A stretch of DNA of 64,000 bases from Carcharhinus amblyrhynchos (Eukaryota): the NCBI GenBank assembly GCA_965287045.1, contig OZ336877.1, positions 8,122,001-8,186,000 on the forward strand, given 5' to 3'. This document shows positions 2,360-48,310 of this stretch, one piece after another; within the stretch, counting starts at the first letter, position 1; each line of letters opens with the position of its first letter. The position numbers and the translations under genes were made by a program. The notes beneath the pieces were generated by a model, which did no database searches, was not told the DNA's origin, and was given only the letters and a program-made list of their open reading frames with translations.

Positions 2360-2560
2360 GGAAAATATTGCAGATGCTGGAATTCTGAAATGAAAACAGA
2401 AAACGCTGGAAATGTTCAGCAAGTCAGGCAGTATCTGTGGAGGGGAACACAGCTAACGTCTCAGGTCCTGATGACAGATAATCAAGACTGATCATGAACT
2501 CTGTTCCCTTCCACAGATGCTGTCTGACTCGCTGAGTATTTCCAACATTTTCTGTTTTAT
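2360..2560. repeat. Palindromic (hairpin) PLE-derived short element with a decayed hammerhead core in the loop
   Basis: Arms aaaacagaaaacgctggaaatgttcagcaagtcaggcagtatctgtggagg and ccttccacagatgctgtctgactcgctgagtatttccaacattttctgtttt are reverse complements; the centre contains CTGATGA. Confidence 0.7.
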
Positions 2561-24009: not shown

Positions 24010-25505
24010 TCTAGTAAACAAAGAAATGGCAGAGGAACTGAATGGTTACTTTGCATCAGTCCTCACAGTGGAAGGCACCAGTGGGATGCCAGAGCTCCAA
24101 GAGAGTCAGGGGGCACAGGTGAGTGTGGTGGCCATCACAAGGGAGGTTCTGGGGAAACTGAAAGGTCTTAAGGTGGATAAATCTGGACCGGATGGACTAC
24201 ACCCCAGGGTTCTAAAAGAGATAGCTCAGGAAATCGTGGGGACATTGGTGTTGATCTTACAGGAATCACTGGAGGTAGGGAGGGTAAACACAGTAAGAAG
24301 TCTCACACACCAGGTTAAAGTCCAACAGGTTTATTTGGTAGTAAACGCCACTAGCTTTAAGGATTTTCCCCTTCGTCAGGTGACTGGAAGCTGGTGGTGT
24401 TTACTACCAAATAATCCTGTTGGACTTTAACCTGGTGTTGTGAGACTTCTTACTGTATTTACCACAGTCCAACGCCGGCATCTCCACATCATGGCAAGGA
24501 GGATACCGGAGGACTGGAAAGTAGCTAATGTAACACCGCTGTTTAAGAGAGGAAGGCAGCAGATGGGAAATTATAAGCCTGTTAGCCTGACTTTGGTCAC
24601 TGGCAAGATTTTAGAGCTCACTATTAAAAATGAGATCGCAGAGTACTTGCAAGCGCATGTTAAAGTAGTACTGAGATAGCACAGCTTTGTCAAGGGGAGG
24701 TCATGTTGACAAATCTGTTCGTGTTCTTTGAGGAGGTAAGAAGGAAGTTAGATAAAGGAGAACCAGTGGATGTGATTTATTTAGATTTCCAGAAGGCCTT
24801 CGACAAGGTGCTGCATAGGAGACTGTTAAATAAGAGTCCATGGTGATAAGAGTAAGATCCTGGCCTGGATAGAGGATTGGAGGACTGCAGAAGGCAGAGA
24901 GTGGGGATAAAGGGGTCTTTTTCAGGATGGTAGCCGGTGACTCGTGACCCTGTGCCTCAGGGGTCAGTGCTGGGACCACAACTTTTCACGATATACATTA
25001 ACAATTTGGGGGAAGGAACTGAAGCACCATTGCTAAGTTTGCAGATGGTACAAAGATATGTAGAGAGACAGGTAGTATTGAGGAAGAAGGTGGGCTTCAG
25101 AAGGACTTGGACAGGTTAGAAGAGTGGGCAAAGAAGTGGCAGATGGACTACAATGTAGAAAAGTGTGAAGTTATGCACTTTGAGAGGAGGAATGGAGGCA
25201 TAGACTATTTTCTAAATGGGGAAGTGCTTAGGAAATTAGAACACAAAAGGACTTGGGAGTCCTTGTTCAAGACTCTCAAGGTTAACGTACAGGTTCATTC
25301 GGCAGTTAGGAAGACAACTGCAATATTTGCATTCATGTTAAGGAGGCTGGAATACAAAAGTAAGGATGTACTTCTGAGGTTATATAAGGCTCTGGTCAGA
25401 TCCAATTTGGAGCACTGTGAGCAATTTTGGGCCCATATCTAAGGATGGATGTGCTGATCTTGGAAAGGGTTCAGTGCAGATTCACAAAAATGATCCCTGG
25501 ATCTC
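24010..25505 (+). mobile_element. CR1 LINE ORF2 (RT), frameshifted, interrupted at ~24282-24493
   Basis: GPDGLHPRVLKE, PEDWKVANVTPLFK, YLDFQKAFDKV, PQGSVLGPQLFTIYIN and KCEVMHF motifs. Confidence 0.92.
24282..24493. repeat. Palindromic PLE-derived short element with a hammerhead-like core (minus strand 24349-24382), inserted in CR1
   Basis: ~60-bp inverted arms cagtaagaagtctcacacaccaggttaaagtccaacaggtttatttggtagtaaac and gtttactaccaaataatcctgttggactttaacctggtgttgtgagacttcttactg; minus-strand core CAC-CTGACGA-A-GGGGAAAATCCT-TAAA-GCTA-GTG. Confidence 0.8.
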
Positions 25506-27918: not shown

Positions 27919-28455
27919 GAAGAGCGTTCCAGATTTCCACCATCCTTTACGCGGACAAAGTGCTTACTGATTTCTACCTCTGAATGGCTTAGCTCTAATT
28001 TTAAGATTGCATTTCCTCATTATTTATGCTCCCAATAGAAAGCAGTTTCTCTTCATCTACCCGACCAAATCCTTGAATGTTCTTGAATACGGGATTTTTG
28101 TTTTGTTTATATCCAATTCAAACCAATTAAAATCCAATTCAAAGTCTCAGCAAGTGAGACTTCCTGTCTTGGGTTTGGTCTACATGATCCAAGCTGACTG
28201 CAGTTTCTCCAAGGCTTGATCTCATTTGCAACTTAGCCAAAAGGCCCAGATGCCACTTTAAAAAATTGCTTCGAATGAAGCCTCAGTGTAACCTCATGAC
28301 TTCAACCAAGTGCAGGATGTTGATGTTACACTTGATTTTAGCCAAAAGGCCGAGAAGCAGGATATTAAAGGCGATCTAATCCAGGCATTTAAAACTGTAA
28401 AACACTGGTTTCCGTTCTCCTACTTAAAAGTTAATGTCAAACTCTTATGTTATGA

Positions 28456-28497
28456 TAAGAAGTCTCAACACCAAGTTAAAATCCAACAGGTTTATTT
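28456..28497 (+). repeat. Single arm fragment of the 24282-type palindromic element
   Basis: taagaagtctcaacaccaagttaaaatccaacaggtttattt. Confidence 0.65.
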
Positions 28498-37285: not shown

Positions 37286-37314
37286 AGGACATTGATGAGA
37301 ACAGAGAAACTCAC

Positions 37315-37442
37315 AATTCTGCTAGTGTTGTCAACAATGTTCTGTTACTTGGAGCCCGATCCAGATGATCCAACACAGAGCGAACGACAGTCATATTGTT
37401 ATAAATATCACCTGGCCACTCTCTTATTAAGGATGCAAATCC
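37315..37442 (-). CDS. VPS41: VPS41 exon (~18), 128 bp: GFASLIREWPGDIYNNMTVVRSVLDHLDRAPSNRTLLTTLAE(L)
   Basis: aag|GGA...GAATT|gtgagt; phase 0 to 2. Confidence 0.95.
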
Positions 37443-39299
37443 CTTAAAAAATAAAATAGCATGCATGAATTATGAGACAAAACTGGTAACTGCTATAGAC
37501 CTTCATTCTTTGTATGCAATACTCCCTCTATACAATGGAGGGATGAAACCTGGTGGATTGACTTTGGGCTACTGCAGAATTTCATGAGTGAGCAATTATG
37601 GCTTTGCAAACATGCTTCAACTCTAGCTTCATATAAAGCCCACAGGACCAGTATAATTTAATCTGAAAGAAAATTGTAACAGTCTTGCTGTTATACTTTA
37701 GCACTGCACTTAAAGTATTGTTAATCATGAAGGCTCAGTGTTATGCGAATAAAGTCAAACTTATAAGATTGATAATAGAGATTTCTTCATCAACCATCTC
37801 CACACACCATAAGATTATAACAAATATAAATAGAAGGAAGAGTTCTGCAATAGAAGTATAATGCAAAGTGGTTCAGCAGACTGCCAGTGACGTTAACTAT
37901 GCCCTTGTCAATAAGTAGAAAGGTGGCTTCATCTGGTGGCTCTGCAAATTTTTTCAGTCAGAATATGACTGACAAACTTTTAGGATGCAACTGTGCCACT
38001 CGTGGGATAATCTTTAATCTGCTCCAGGCCTTTTCCCTGTAAGTAGCGGAACAAACTACCTTTAGTTATCCACTGCCTGTCACTAGCTTGATGTGGACTT
38101 TGCAACATGCTAAACAATGGAACCGCTGAGATGAAATAATTTATCTTGTAGTCTTCAAAATAGTTAAGTTAAAATGGAAGTAGTCACTTGTTCCCAAAAA
38201 TCAACACAGAAGATACTTCACTGATGACAGAGCAGGAACTTTTGTGACAGCTCATTTTAAGGAGTGTGCATGGCATTCCTGCAGGGTGATGTAAAAGTTG
38301 GTGACTTACAGATGCTAGCCAGACCCCTGGCATATCCTTGATCACTTTGAACCTATGCTATTGAAGAACATTTTTAAAACACTTAGGTCTATTACTAGAA
38401 TGACCCCTATCTTGTTGAAGAGTATTAAATAACTGCAATAGAACTGGACTTGGAGTGAAGTGTCTAAATTATTTCACTGTGATCTAGTCTTTCAAATTTC
38501 ACCTCGAGTGTATTTTTGCCACCTAGTGCTGCCATTAAGGCCTGTGCACTCTAAAAATGGGCCAAAAGCACATCAGTACATCATCAGCATTGGAGAAAAG
38601 GCAAAAGGCCAGATCAGCATTGTTCAGTACCAAATGTTACACAAACTGAACAAATGTAACTTTGCCCCGAGGTGGAAACATTTGACTGAGTACATTGCCA
38701 TTCACATTGGTCTGACAAACTCTCTGCTGAGAAGCCATCTTCCTGTACTATTTTCTGATTTTTGTCCTCAACCATGAATGGTCTACTGCATTTTGGACAG
38801 CATACAGAAAGACTTTAGCAGCAGCTGACACTGACAAATGGCTACCAACACTCTTAGTACATTTTGAGATAGACAGCAAGGTTTCCTCCAAGCTGTGCAT
38901 TAAGCAGTTTTAAATTAGTGCACCTGCCTGGCTCTGCCAGATAATTTAAAGGGGTTGTACACTTCAACAAATCACGTGTACAATCTCGGGAATAATTGGT
39001 AGACAGTTCTATGGATCAGCATTGATGAATGACCATAACCTTGCTGGAGAGTGCAACATTCAACTTTTGTACCTCAGCCCATATATTTATGTATTTTGTG
39101 GTTCTCTTGGAAATGGATGTCCAAACATTGGTCGACTTTCTTTCCACACCTCCTGCCTTGTTTAATTGTGCTCATGTCCCAATTAGAACTGCACCTCCTT
39201 ACATACTGTTTCTTCTCCAGCTTTGCTGGTCAGTGCCAACCATCCTGATAATCAGATTCACTGAAAGGAAAAATAATTAAATACAAAGTGCCTGAAATT

Positions 39300-40890: not shown

Positions 40891-41439
40891 ATATAATAGA
40901 GTAAGGACTTCCTTGTTTACCGCAATGCTGTGGCTAAGATGAAAACTCAAAATTCTAACAATACCTGTAACTCAAGGAAAGAAATAAAGATCTAGCACTG
41001 TTCCACAACCTTATATAACAAGAACTACTTTTTGAAATAGTGTAGTTTATGTGGGCAAGGCTCACTAGTAGCAAGTGGTTGAACAACAAAACAATTCCTT
41101 TTCTTTTTAAAACACAGCACTGATAAGCAGAAGAGCAATCTTTTCATGATGGGGAAAGAAATTAACTGCACAACGTTGCAGGCGTTGGTGTGACTTGTAA
41201 CCTATGGTACGTGGCTGCTCCAGAACCAACAAAGTTGAGAGTTTCCTCCTTAATGCATGTGATGAATAATTAGAGGAATAATGCTCACAGAAATCATTTT
41301 CATATTGCTGCAGAATAAAATATTTTACAAATTTGTCTTCTAACTTCTGTGTGAAATCCTCAATATTGGGTTATTGAGTAACTGAAAGCAGGGGAGCGCT
41401 GATCTGGTTGTCTGTCATAGGATCTGTTGTTTCCTATGA

Positions 41440-41622
41440 AGTAAGAAGTCTCACAACACCAGGTTGGAGTCACAACACCAGGAATCTTCCACACACCTGA
41501 CGAAGGAACAGCATTTCCGAAAGCTTGTGGGTTTACTATCAAATAAACTGGTTGGACTTTAACCTGGTGTTGTGAGACTTCTTACTGTATTTACCCCAGT
41601 CCAACGCTGGCATCTCCACATC
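41440..41622 (+). repeat. PLE-derived short element (24282 family) with short left arm and full right arm plus tail
   Basis: gtaagaagtctcacaacaccaggtt...aaataaactggttggactttaacctggtgttgtgagacttcttactgtatttaccccagtccaacgctggcatctccacatc. Confidence 0.82.
41494..41529 (+). ncRNA. Putative minimal type I hammerhead ribozyme (PLE-type)
   Basis: CAC-CTGACGA-A-GGAA(CAGCAT)TTCC-GAAA-GC-TT-GTG: catalytic boxes, 4-bp stem II, palindromic AAGCTT stem III, CAC/GTG stem I. Confidence 0.55.
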
Positions 41623-41879
41623 GTTTTCCATGGAGACAGGATCAGAATTGAGTGTTGAATCTGTGCCTTTCAGCTCATTACCTATGCATGGTTGTAAAAG
41701 GTGGCAAATTTTGGAGACGGACAGGAAGTTGATGCTGCTCCCAATACCTCAAGGGTTCACACATCTGGGTGCCATATTTAAAGGGAATCCGGACAGTTAC
41801 TAATTGTCTGACCCCAGAATGGCCTCCTATTGCCATGCACCACCTTTGAGGTTGACAACCCCATCCCTGCAGTGGACAG

Positions 41880-46211: not shown

Positions 46212-46304
46212 CTCATAATCACTCTCCAGGAATTCATACAAGATCATTTCATATATTGCAGGCCTCAGGCGTAGGTCACCTCTTGGTAAGTACTGACTAA
46301 TTGC
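46212..46304 (-). CDS. VPS41: VPS41 exon (~17), 93 bp: AISQYLPRGDLRLRPAIYEMILYEFLESDYE
   Basis: tag|GCA...GAG|gtacgt; phase 0 to 0. Confidence 0.96.
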
Positions 46305-48310
46305 CTAAAAGGAACAAATTAACTTGGTATAAGTACAGAGATCAACGTGTAAGAATTTTGACAATAGCCGACAAAAAGGTCAACTAGTTCATTCCTTTCT
46401 TTTATAACAAATTCGTTTAAATCTGTGACACTGAAATGTATCTAACTATGTGCACAGAGTTTTACACCATACATAGGAGAAATTGCTGCACCAGTATTTC
46501 CAAAAAAGGAGGTTGCTGTGGTTGAATATTATAAGAAATGAAGCCCATTCAGAGCAAGGCACATTCCTTTGGGAAATTGATTTGGGATGAGTACTCACTC
46601 TATCCAAGGAAATCAAACTCCCTTGTCTCCCACTAGATGCGACTGCACCAGAGCTTCAAGGCCAAAAATCTTTTGTTTTTTGCATCCAGTCATATATGAC
46701 AGACCTAGTGTATGGTGCCTGTAAATCTTATAACTTCTGTCTTAAGGTCTAGAATAAAGGGCAGCTTTTGCTTCTGACTCCATTTTAGGAGCACAGGGTA
46801 CATCACCATCTCATTAAAGTTCTTTCCAAAGAATAGAAATGTTTCTTCTTTCTGGTCACATCCGTACTGCTTTGGTTTGTAGTGCCGTTCATCGTCAAAA
46901 AAGTTACTTCTAATAAAAAAGTTATCTGAAATCACAAAATGCTTTTGTTACAGATGCCCCATTAAGTTGCCTCTGTTTCATGGATATAAACCCTCAAATT
47001 ATTCAAGGGGCATTGGTTAATTGCCACGCCACTAATTTTCAACTTGTTTTATTGGAAGAATTTTCACAAGCATTACATTAGCAGATTTAACAATTATTAA
47101 CATTATTTCCTCATGTGTTTTGGATTCAGTGATGGCAAGATAAGACTTTCAAAGACCACTTCTCGAATCTGTGCACAGCATGACATACGATGATGATTAC
47201 TGTTAAGGGAACTGAGAAAACTGAGGTGCCTGCCAATAAATGGCCATTTTACTGTAGCACATTTCTAATTTAACCTTAGTTTTCAGCATCATGTTTTAGA
47301 TCATCAGACTGACACGTTTTTCCTTAATGTATCAATGCAAAATTGAATGAATTCTTACTGTCCATCTTCGTCAACGTTACGCATGTAGAGATGGTCACCA
47401 TTTGAACAGAGGAGCTGCTTTGCTTGTTTTATCCCATTACTTCTACATATTAGAACTGCATGAATTTTTTTCTTCTCTCTATCTTTCTTTCACTCTCTTT
47501 GTGCATTTTTTCTGGGAGTTGTATACACTTTGGAAATTGTGCAAATGCCCCCTCTTCAGTGGGTCCGATTAGACAGCTGCATTTTCACTTGGTGATTCAC
47601 ACCTCTCAAGCGAGCCTGGGCAGTCACTGGCAGCAGGGACAGAATTTTTCTTGAATCCTTTCACGGGATATGCGCATTCCTGGCAAAGCAACAGTGATTG
47701 CTCATCCCTTATTGCCTTTGAAAAGATGGTGGTAAGCTGCCTCTTGATCTACTGCAGTCTGTCAGGAGTAGGTGTGAAGAGAGTGCCAGGATTTTCCCCA
47801 AGAACGATGAAGGGATAGTAACACCGTTATAAGTCAGAAGGACGGTCAGTCCTGGTAAATAGAAATTTTCTCCAAGCAAACATTGGGAAGGCAGACTTAT
47901 GGTTTTCAATCCCACTGTCTAACTTTGTTCCCTCTCCAGTGACTCATCCCTCTGACTAGCAACTGTCTGAACATTGAACCAGACTGTTTCCAAGCTTCAA
48001 ATGTCAGACTAGAGATGAGCTTCCAACCATGTATCTGCACTCTGCCTTATTGCGACCCCTCTTAATTATATTAAGCTCCTTAAAAAGCACCCATTTATCT
48101 CCAAGCTTTAGATCTGCAGAAGCATCTTCAAGCATTGATGTAGTTTTATTTTTTTTGCAGATATTAATAGATACTTTATACATTGCCAGCATTTAACATC
48201 TTTTAGCGCAGCAACACACACTGAACATGACCTTTCCTGGGCATCCGAAGGGATTTTTGGAAACTCCTTAGTTGGAAAATATATCAGAACATCATGAATG
48301 AGAAATAACA

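What the first reader, a model, noticed from the sequence alone, without database searches (positions are those of the whole stretch)
41440..41622. Apparently intact minimal hammerhead ribozyme inside a ~180-bp non-coding hairpin element
Seen: at 41494-41529 the + strand reads CAC CUGACGA A GGAA-CAGCAU-UUCC GAAA GC UU GUG. This has both catalytic boxes, a closed stem II, a self-complementary AAGCUU stem III and a 3-bp stem I. It sits in a short non-coding element whose arms recur at 24282-24493 and 28456. Known: Penelope-like elements carry minimal type I hammerheads with palindromic stem III that cleave as dimers. Inference: this may be a mobile, non-autonomous ribozyme-carrying family (retrozyme- or MITE-like) moved by PLE machinery in sharks. 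I do not know whether it has been described. It lies antisense to VPS41.
Basis: partly seen in the sequence, partly recalled or inferred. Interest (0 to 1): 0.7.

Follow-up and report, generated by a model that had tools for sequence, protein, structure and literature searches.

The report
Stub of a Penelope jumping gene
The small self-cutting-RNA motif is really there, but it is the standard end piece of a very abundant Penelope-type jumping gene, left as a one-off, likely dead mirror-image stub in a VPS41 intron; the one fresh detail is that such stubs stop at one sharp position just ahead of the motif, which likely marks the start of the element's uncut RNA.

Summary
Observation confirmed; interpretation only partly. 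The minimal type I hammerhead at 41494-41529 is real (1 in the window, 0 in 100 shuffles) and lies antisense in a VPS41 intron. It is the pseudo-LTR (pLTR) hammerhead of an autonomous Penelope-like element (PLE): 893-aa RT + GIY-YIG ORF, whose ATG directly follows the stub's last base. The genome holds 42,067 exact motif hits. The hairpin is the published head-to-head inverted pLTR with a one-sided 36-nt tail. Paired copies carry 10-14-bp target-site duplications (28 of 39; controls 0 of 195), run from 115 to 1,123 bp, and this copy's junction is unique. So it is not a self-copying MITE or retrozyme family. Truncation is not random, though: 36 of 87 arms start 1-25 nt before the core (8.4 expected), peaking at -15/-14, and both arms of an insertion share that class. 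This copy starts there. That likely records the RNA's 5' end, uncut by the ribozyme. The scan has reported this element type many times on other DNA.

The parts
41429..41441 (+). Candidate left target-site duplication (13 bp, decayed; overlaps first 2 nt of the inverted arm)
   Evidence: 10 of 13 identical to 41623-41635; 28 of 2000 random flanks reach that. Family TSDs are mostly 10-14 bp.
41440..41471 (-). Short inverted pLTR arm ending at the inner 3' end ('A end', 36 nt before the ORF start)
   Evidence: Complementary to 41551-41586, 92% over 37 columns; A+B pairing in 37 of 39 paired copies
41470..41482 (+). Junction filler: 13-nt second copy of 41451-41463
   Evidence: Seen directly; junction unique in the genome at up to 1 mismatch
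41482..41622 (+). Direct pLTR arm, from position -15 (relative to C3 of CUGA) to the outer 3' end ('B end') just before the element's ATG
   Evidence: 95.7% over 141 nt to ORF-linked pLTRs L016, L017, L180; ATG follows the same end in full-length copies L061-L063
41491..41532 (+). Minimal type I hammerhead; predicted cut between 41526 and 41527
   Evidence: stem II covaries across family variants. Cleavage untested.
41587..41622 (+). One-sided 36-nt 'tail' between the A and B ends
   Evidence: 3' ends cluster near +89 and +125; matches the 30-40-bp tail of PMC8557442 and PMC11167929
41623..41635 (+). Candidate right target-site duplication
24285..24493 (.). Second, independent inverted insertion of another variant: long A arm with a dead hammerhead (G12 lost) on the minus strand, short B arm with tail and ATG on the plus strand
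   Evidence: best flank 13-mer 10 of 13, reached by 16 of 2000 random flanks
28456..28497 (-). 42-bp single arm fragment without hammerhead

Best explanation
This is a single, old, 5'-truncated insertion of the hammerhead-bearing end of an autonomous Penelope-like retrotransposon, likely made when the element's protein primed reverse transcription from both strands of a staggered cut and copied the short 5' leader of its own, likely uncut, RNA. Shown: pLTR identity, link to an RT + GIY-YIG ORF, two fixed 3' ends (A and B) 36 nt apart with one of each per insertion, TSDs in the family, variable unique junctions, and a sharp pile-up of arm starts at -15/-14. Inferred: one target strand primes at B (just before the ATG) and the other at A. 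The B-primed cDNA ran off the RNA's 5' end at -15/-14, the A-primed cDNA stopped after about 30 nt, and the two were joined head to head through a 13-nt templated filler. The hammerhead is inherited from the master element, where stem II is kept by compensatory change. Here it likely does nothing: it is single, has no dimer partner in cis, and the VPS41 transcript carries its complement.
For: Full-length copies L061 and L063 have pLTR-hammerhead, 893-aa ORF, pLTR-hammerhead; RVT_1 E 1.5e-9; C-terminus nearest to GIY-YIG clusters at 0.96. L017, the same stem II group as the window copy, runs into this ORF at 91% aa identity. A+B pairing in 37 of 39 and 16 of 17 paired loci; TSD in 28 of 39 and 14 of 17 against 0 of 195 and 0 of 85 controls. 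The A arm is the longer one in 43 of 79 pairs, which fold-back from one cDNA cannot give, because an A-primed cDNA lacks the tail. Arm starts: 36 of 87 at -25..-1, 8.4 expected, P 1.6e-12; repeated in arms not used for picking, 33 of 53 that pass the core. Pairs: 14 both in the hotspot, 23 both beyond, 3 mixed, Fisher P 7e-8. Base -15 is G in 26 of 36, base -16 matches the template A in only 8 of 36. PMC11167929 shows in vitro that a PLE protein cuts and extends both strands, starts at two internal sites that bound the tail, and uses uncleaved RNA.
Against: The TSD of this copy is weak (10 of 13; about 1.4% by chance). 45 of 87 arm-picked loci had no partner arm found, so inversion is not obligatory. 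11 of 90 pairs scored A+A or B+B (some look like mis-pairings). GIY-YIG stays below the Pfam cut-off (E 0.0099; no hit on the full protein). The RNA 5' end is inferred from DNA only. The TATA-like word lies about 20 nt before it, closer than a canonical TATA box (recalled spacing), and -15/-14 is also a CAG|A splice-acceptor-like site. In D. virilis the start site lies 46 nt before a 75-nt intron (PMC2377424), not next to the hammerhead. Samples came from the first-listed hits on contigs C1-C2 and from exact patterns, which favours less decayed copies.
Confidence: 0.85

Rival explanations
1. A non-autonomous, self-propagating family (MITE- or retrozyme-like): the ~180-bp hairpin is transcribed and re-inserted as a unit by PLE proteins.
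For: Short forms are very common: 29 of 39 paired arm-picked elements are 115-268 bp. A preferred 5' boundary exists. PLE termini can act in trans (PMC3846280, passages).
Against: Lengths are continuous to 1,123 bp. The 30 best matches show differing junctions and this junction is unique. No head-to-tail tandem of units at this locus, which defines non-LTR retrozymes (bioRxiv 2026.07.22.740005). The core decays in dispersed copies: 74 of 115 motif-blind copies intact.
Confidence: 0.05
2. Same PLE stub, but the -15/-14 boundary comes from splicing: a 75-nt 5' intron ends at CAG|A just before stem I, as in D. virilis Penelope, and short copies derive from a spliced RNA or a released 3' exon.
For: CAG at -17..-15 in 88 of 93 long pLTRs, and an AG|GT about 75 nt upstream in most (L063 1956-2030). 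The D. virilis intron is 75 nt (PMC2377424) and ends at helix I (PMC4209133).
Against: Only 1 of 50 arms breaking near -14 has anything like the upstream exon in front, and that one is explained by its inverted arm. A spliced RNA would let the cDNA continue into exon 1. These motifs are no more conserved than neighbouring columns.
Confidence: 0.2
3. Same PLE stub, but the mirror arm is made by fold-back self-priming of one cDNA or of an antisense template (as proposed in PMC3846280), and the boundary is a reverse-transcriptase stall or a microhomology hotspot.
For: Arm lengths are equal within 5 nt in 17 of 79 pairs. Short palindromic words lie around -25..-7. Templated fillers occur at junctions.
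Against: The A arm is longer than the tail-bearing B arm in 43 of 79 pairs. Partners of long arms fall in the hotspot only 3 of 26 times, against 36 of 62 overall, which a sequence-intrinsic stall would not give.
Confidence: 0.12
4. The ribozyme at this locus is active and host-relevant (cuts an antisense RNA or affects VPS41).
For: All core residues are intact; stem II forms with probability 0.57-0.75 in the folded element.
Against: An intact core is the common state (74 of 115). Stem I probability is 0.23. Single metazoan min-HHRs did not cleave in vitro (PMC4209133) and the anole one needed protein (PMC11167929). The host transcript is on the other strand.
Confidence: 0.03

Closest known systems
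Minimal hammerheads (min-HHR) in pLTRs of metazoan PLEs (Cervera and De la Pena 2014, PMC4209133; read parts 1-2 of 4)
   Same: CUGANGA/GAAA core, one extra base before stem II (A in 165 of 167), G10.1-C11.1, palindromic 15.2-16.2 (GC in 156 of 167), many variant families, mostly single motifs from truncated PLEs, opposite-strand pairs.
   Different: Stem II is 4 bp here, not 7-8. U17 dominates (146 of 167). 42,067 exact hits against about 4,000 and 9,000 reported for coelacanth and Xenopus (different search methods). No shark named in the parts read; supplements not seen.
EN+ PLE insertions with inverted 5'-truncated pLTR, one-sided 30-40-bp tail and TSD (PMC8557442, PMC3846280, PMC2377424; passages)
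   Same: Head-to-head inverted pLTRs, 36-nt tail on one side, TSD, frequent 5' truncation, partial tandems (L063).
   Different: Here neither arm reaches the ORF. The tail ends at the ATG rather than inside the ORF as in Pen2a_Av. TSDs are mostly 10-14 bp against 8-10 bp. The fixed -15/-14 boundary was not in the passages read.
Poseidon element PAc of Anolis carolinensis (Frangieh et al. 2024, PMC11167929; read parts 1-2 of 4)
   Same: Two internal RT start sites bounding the tail; both target strands cut and extended; uncleaved RNA as template.
   Different: In PAc the hammerhead overlaps the start codon and the start sites lie about 111-118 nt inside the ORF. Here the hammerhead is about 125 nt upstream of the ATG and the sites are in the leader. 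This ORF has a C-x4-C-x2-C linker, the Neptune/Nematis mark.
Non-LTR retrozymes of animals (bioRxiv 10.64898/2026.07.22.740005; part 1 of 5 and passages)
   Same: Non-coding, type I hammerhead, derived from PLE pLTRs.
   Different: Retrozymes are head-to-tail tandems with a hammerhead per unit. This is a single inverted insertion with one hammerhead.

Membership tests
Minimal type I hammerhead of PLEs | Intact CUGANGA and GAAA...UH core with stems I and II | tested here: met
   0 of 100 shuffles
Minimal type I hammerhead of PLEs | Compensatory change in stem II across variants | tested here: met
   45 of 48 cells Watson-Crick in 16 variants seen 3 or more times; shuffle mean 25.5, 0 of 5000 reach it. 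The variants are related, so this is about three stem types, not 16 events.
Minimal type I hammerhead of PLEs | Located in the pLTR of a PLE | tested here: met
   L061, L063; L017; 95.7% match of the window arm
Minimal type I hammerhead of PLEs | Self-cleavage as a dimer or with protein | not testable with these tools
   Needs an in vitro assay
EN+ Penelope-like element | Single ORF with RT followed by C-terminal GIY-YIG endonuclease | tested here: met
   893 aa; RVT_1 E 1.5e-9; GIY-YIG by atlas 0.96, Pfam E 0.0099 below cut-off, T4 endonuclease II E 0.87 (weak). Met for the family; the window copy holds no ORF.
EN+ Penelope-like element | Direct or inverted pLTRs with a one-sided 30-40-bp tail | tested here: met
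   A+B in 37 of 39 paired loci; 36-nt tail at 41587-41622
EN+ Penelope-like element | Target-site duplication | tested here: met
   Family 28 of 39 against 0 of 195. For this copy only a decayed candidate, 10 of 13.
Neptune clade of PLEs | CX2-5CxxC zinc-finger-like linker between RT and EN (PMC8557442) | tested here: met
   C-x4-C-x2-C read in L061-L063 before the nuclease; shared with Nematis
Neptune clade of PLEs | Placement by RT phylogeny | not tested
   No reference PLE sequences were fetched
Non-LTR retrozyme | Head-to-tail tandem units, each with a hammerhead | tested here: not met
   One hammerhead in an inverted layout
Non-LTR retrozyme | Circular RNA intermediate | not testable with these tools
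   Only assembled contigs were available
MITE-like non-autonomous family | Many copies of one fixed unit with shared ends and interior | tested here: not met
   Lengths 115-1,123 bp; junction unique

The most novel reading that the evidence does not exclude
These stubs are a genome-wide fossil record of 'leader-primed' PLE insertions. The protein primes at two fixed sites near the 5' end of its own mRNA, one per target strand, and both cDNAs run off at a defined 5' end 14-15 nt before the hammerhead core, possibly reading the cap as a G. About half of all arms that reach the core are of this class. They end at the RNA's start and not at the ribozyme cut site, so the template is uncleaved in the living animal, and the hammerhead would act as a decapping switch 45 nt into the mRNA rather than as a maturation step for transposition.
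Probability: 0.5. Interest if true: 0.5.

Novelty: new member of a known kind. Interest (0 to 1): 0.27.

Why it matters
The locus itself is an ordinary fossil. The family is useful because it is very large (42,067 motif hits), includes copies with open 893-aa ORFs, and has sharp insertion ends. What PLE hammerheads do, and how the inverted-plus-tail structure arises, are stated as open in PMC8557442 and PMC11167929. The strict one-A-one-B rule and the two template classes give testable genomic support for priming from both target strands on uncleaved RNA, and predict an RNA 5' end at a single position.

Tried and rejected
Rfam scans found no hammerhead family in the window or in 5 related loci: the models there miss this minimal form, so this is not evidence against it. 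Fossil trace of cleavage: 5 of 25 arm starts downstream of the core's first base lay within 1 nt of the cut site in the first sample (P 0.019), but only 2 of 23 in arms not used for picking (about 1.5 expected); rejected as unsupported, and the palindromic stem III offers microhomology anyway. The large 'downstream' class (values +57 to +61) is an artefact of the tail's own self-complementarity; it was ignored there and filtered. The apparent pile-up at +20..+23 came from using one reference for several stem II variants and vanished with 93 references. Expression and splicing: no RNA holder listed on record; 8 runs guessed to be RNA, all contigs, showed no joint at the putative intron and cannot show RNA ends; no conclusion drawn. 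A sequence look-up in earlier findings returned nothing. Literature searches with no description of this family or of the -15 boundary: (0 papers). Repbase and Dfam could not be searched and supplements were not read, so the family may already be catalogued. No structure prediction or RT tree was run.

Full report
1. The observation. A scan of both strands for CUGANGA, a stem II of at least 4 bp and GAAA finds only this site; the full motif arose in 0 of 100 dinucleotide shuffles. The 183-nt element folds into a long hairpin, -76.5 kcal/mol, z -8.3. Stem I is 3 bp plus an A-G mismatch plus 2 bp. The hammerhead-compatible monomer fold scores -5.2 against -6.1 kcal/mol for the best fold, and in the whole element stem II has probability 0.57-0.75 and stem I 0.23. 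Related pieces lie at 24282-24493 (hammerhead on the minus strand, G12 lost) and 28456-28497 (arm only). VPS41 domains map exon by exon on the minus strand; the element is in the intron between window 46212-46310 and 37308-37448, so the motif is antisense. Rfam did not score it.

2. It belongs to an autonomous Penelope-like element. The window is G000:C8:8122001-8186000 in a 2.92-Gb assembly. A DNA search gave 2,701 candidates, 40 scored. All 30 fetched copies share the hammerhead arm and nearly all the same 3' end. L017 continues upstream through about 210 nt of untranslated sequence into an ORF end. That peptide has 31,068 candidates, 150 scored, three in 917-codon open frames. Those three (L061-L063) encode 893 aa from an ATG that directly follows the last base shared by the short copies; L061 and L063 carry the hammerhead pLTR on both sides. 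The protein has RVT_1 (E 1.5e-9) and a C-terminus whose nearest named clusters are GIY-YIG (0.96; Pfam E 0.0099, below cut-off; T4 endonuclease II E 0.87). It has the DKG motif and a C-x4-C-x2-C linker, which PMC8557442 ties to Neptune and Nematis. L017 is 91% identical to L061 over 177 aa. The window's direct arm, 41482-41622, matches ORF-linked pLTRs at 95.7% over all 141 nt. Exact patterns give 347 hits for this stem II group, 1,851 for the arm and 42,067 for the general motif, against 0, 0 and 1 for reversed controls.

3. The hammerhead is kept in the master lineages, not in the scattered copies. Among 167 motifs in fetched loci, 16 stem II variants occur 3 or more times; pairs 2-4 are Watson-Crick in 45 of 48 cells (shuffle mean 25.5; 0 of 5000), switching between G-C and A-U. 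The variants are related, so this amounts to about three stem types. In 115 copies picked without regard to the motif, 74 keep an intact core and 60 also a stem II of 3 bp or more; C7, G8 and G12 are 78-80% conserved while invariant flanking columns are mostly 93-100%, as expected from CpG decay (my inference). An intact core at this locus is therefore unremarkable.

4. The hairpin is the insertion footprint. I took 88 of the first 100 listed hits of the arm pattern (12 skipped as already held or as the second arm of a fetched element; 1 more dropped as a duplicate), n = 87. The 3' ends fall at two places, about +89 (A) and +125 (B) from the core. Of 87, 39 had an inverted partner, 45 had none found and 3 could not be typed; 37 of 39 were one A and one B. 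TSDs were found in 28 of 39 (controls 0 of 195), mostly 10-14 bp; in 30 hammerhead-picked loci, 17 were paired, 16 A+B, 14 with TSD (controls 0 of 85). Lengths run from 115 to 1,123 bp. This is the head-to-head inverted pLTR with one-sided tail of PMC8557442 and PMC3846280 (passages read). The window copy has a short A arm (41440-41471), a 13-nt duplicated filler, and a B arm; its junction occurs once in the genome; its TSD candidate is 10 of 13, reached by 28 of 2000 random flanks. A replicating MITE- or retrozyme-like unit is not supported.

5. Truncation is not random. With 93 natural long pLTRs as references, the 87 arms start at: beyond -295, 10; -294..-26, 16; -25..-1, 36; inside the hammerhead, 9; within -3..+2 of the cut, 6; further down, 10. 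The hotspot rate is 3.3% per base against 0.8% and 0.4% on either side (36 seen, 8.4 expected, P 1.6e-12), and arms not used for picking repeat it (33 of 53 and 14 of 35 that pass the core). The peak is -15 (13 arms) and -14 (7). Base -15 is G in 26 of 36 while base -16 is random. Among 79 A+B pairs (of 90 scored), 14 have both arms in the hotspot, 23 both beyond it and 3 are mixed (P 7e-8); the A arm is longer in 43, the B arm in 19, equal in 17. The window copy starts at -15/-14. Against a cleavage imprint: 5 of 25 starts near the cut site in one sample (P 0.019) but 2 of 23 in the second. Samples are from contigs C1-C2 and exact patterns.

6. Mechanism. Shown: the parts, their ends and the counts above. 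From PMC11167929 (parts 1-2 of 4 read): a PLE protein cuts and extends both target strands, starts at two internal RNA sites that bound the tail, does not need hammerhead cleavage, and its hammerhead cleaves only with protein. Inferred: each target strand primes one cDNA, one at A and one at B, and the two are joined at their far ends. Simple fold-back of one cDNA cannot give the 43 pairs where the tail-bearing arm is the shorter. A stall would not spare the partners of long arms (3 of 26). So there are likely two templates: the inner or 3' pLTR of a long RNA, giving long arms, and the RNA's own 5' leader, giving arms that cannot pass -15/-14. The simplest reading is a transcript start there. 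A splice-acceptor-like CAG at the same place (88 of 93) and a donor-like site 75 nt upstream echo the D. virilis intron (PMC2377424, PMC4209133), but only 1 of 50 junctions resembles the upstream exon. RNA data could not decide: only contigs of runs guessed to be RNA were available.

7. Comparison and novelty. The motif is the min-HHR of PMC4209133 (parts 1-2 of 4 read), which already notes single motifs from truncated PLEs, opposite-strand pairs, and no cleavage by monomers. It fails the tandem criterion for non-LTR retrozymes (bioRxiv 2026.07.22.740005, part 1 of 5 and passages). PMC6155905 was seen as passages. I found no paper naming this family or the -15 boundary; Repbase, Dfam and supplements were not seen. 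The scan has met the type often: 269 notes in at least 17 genomes and 22 in this one, including twin priming; one note reads a single copy as starting at the cut site, which my samples do not support as a trend. A word search for the upstream hotspot returned none. Verdict: new member of a known kind; interest 0.27, resting on the population-level boundary, not on this locus.

Noticed in passing
window 28175-28361 (-): U2 snRNA-like sequence, 36.1 bits, below Rfam's gathering score of 46, E 0.0013; likely a decayed retrocopy in a VPS41 intron, 95 bp from the 42-bp arm fragment at 28456.
   Followed up: no
window 24100-24700: The second PLE stub interrupts what looks like LINE (CR1-type) coding sequence; the label is recalled, not tested. 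Its hammerhead is sense to VPS41 and dead, while the intact one at 41494 is antisense. Two cases only; a genome-wide strand bias would be worth counting.
   Followed up: no
window 41551-41558 and 41599-41606: The arm and tail carry a short self-complementary pair that flanks the A end; it may form the stem-loop that positions the two priming sites. It caused the artefact.
   Followed up: partly
L061-L063; L064, L065: Three copies with open 893-aa ORFs suggest recent activity. L064 and L065 are multi-kb head-to-head palindromes of long ORF pieces, the large version of the same footprint.
   Followed up: partly
G000:C1:5337805-5527888: A repeated pair of two different hammerhead variants about 5-6 kb apart occurs four times (listing), probably a larger tandem duplication. 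L135 and L149 also share flanks.
   Followed up: no
window 2431-2520: A 90-bp hairpin with weak mir-3202 scores on both strands (E 0.22 and 0.98); probably another inverted repeat.
   Followed up: no
L129, L177, L178, L191 junctions: Junctions often hold short templated repeats of nearby element sequence, like the 13-nt filler here, suggesting repeated re-priming during joining.
   Followed up: partly
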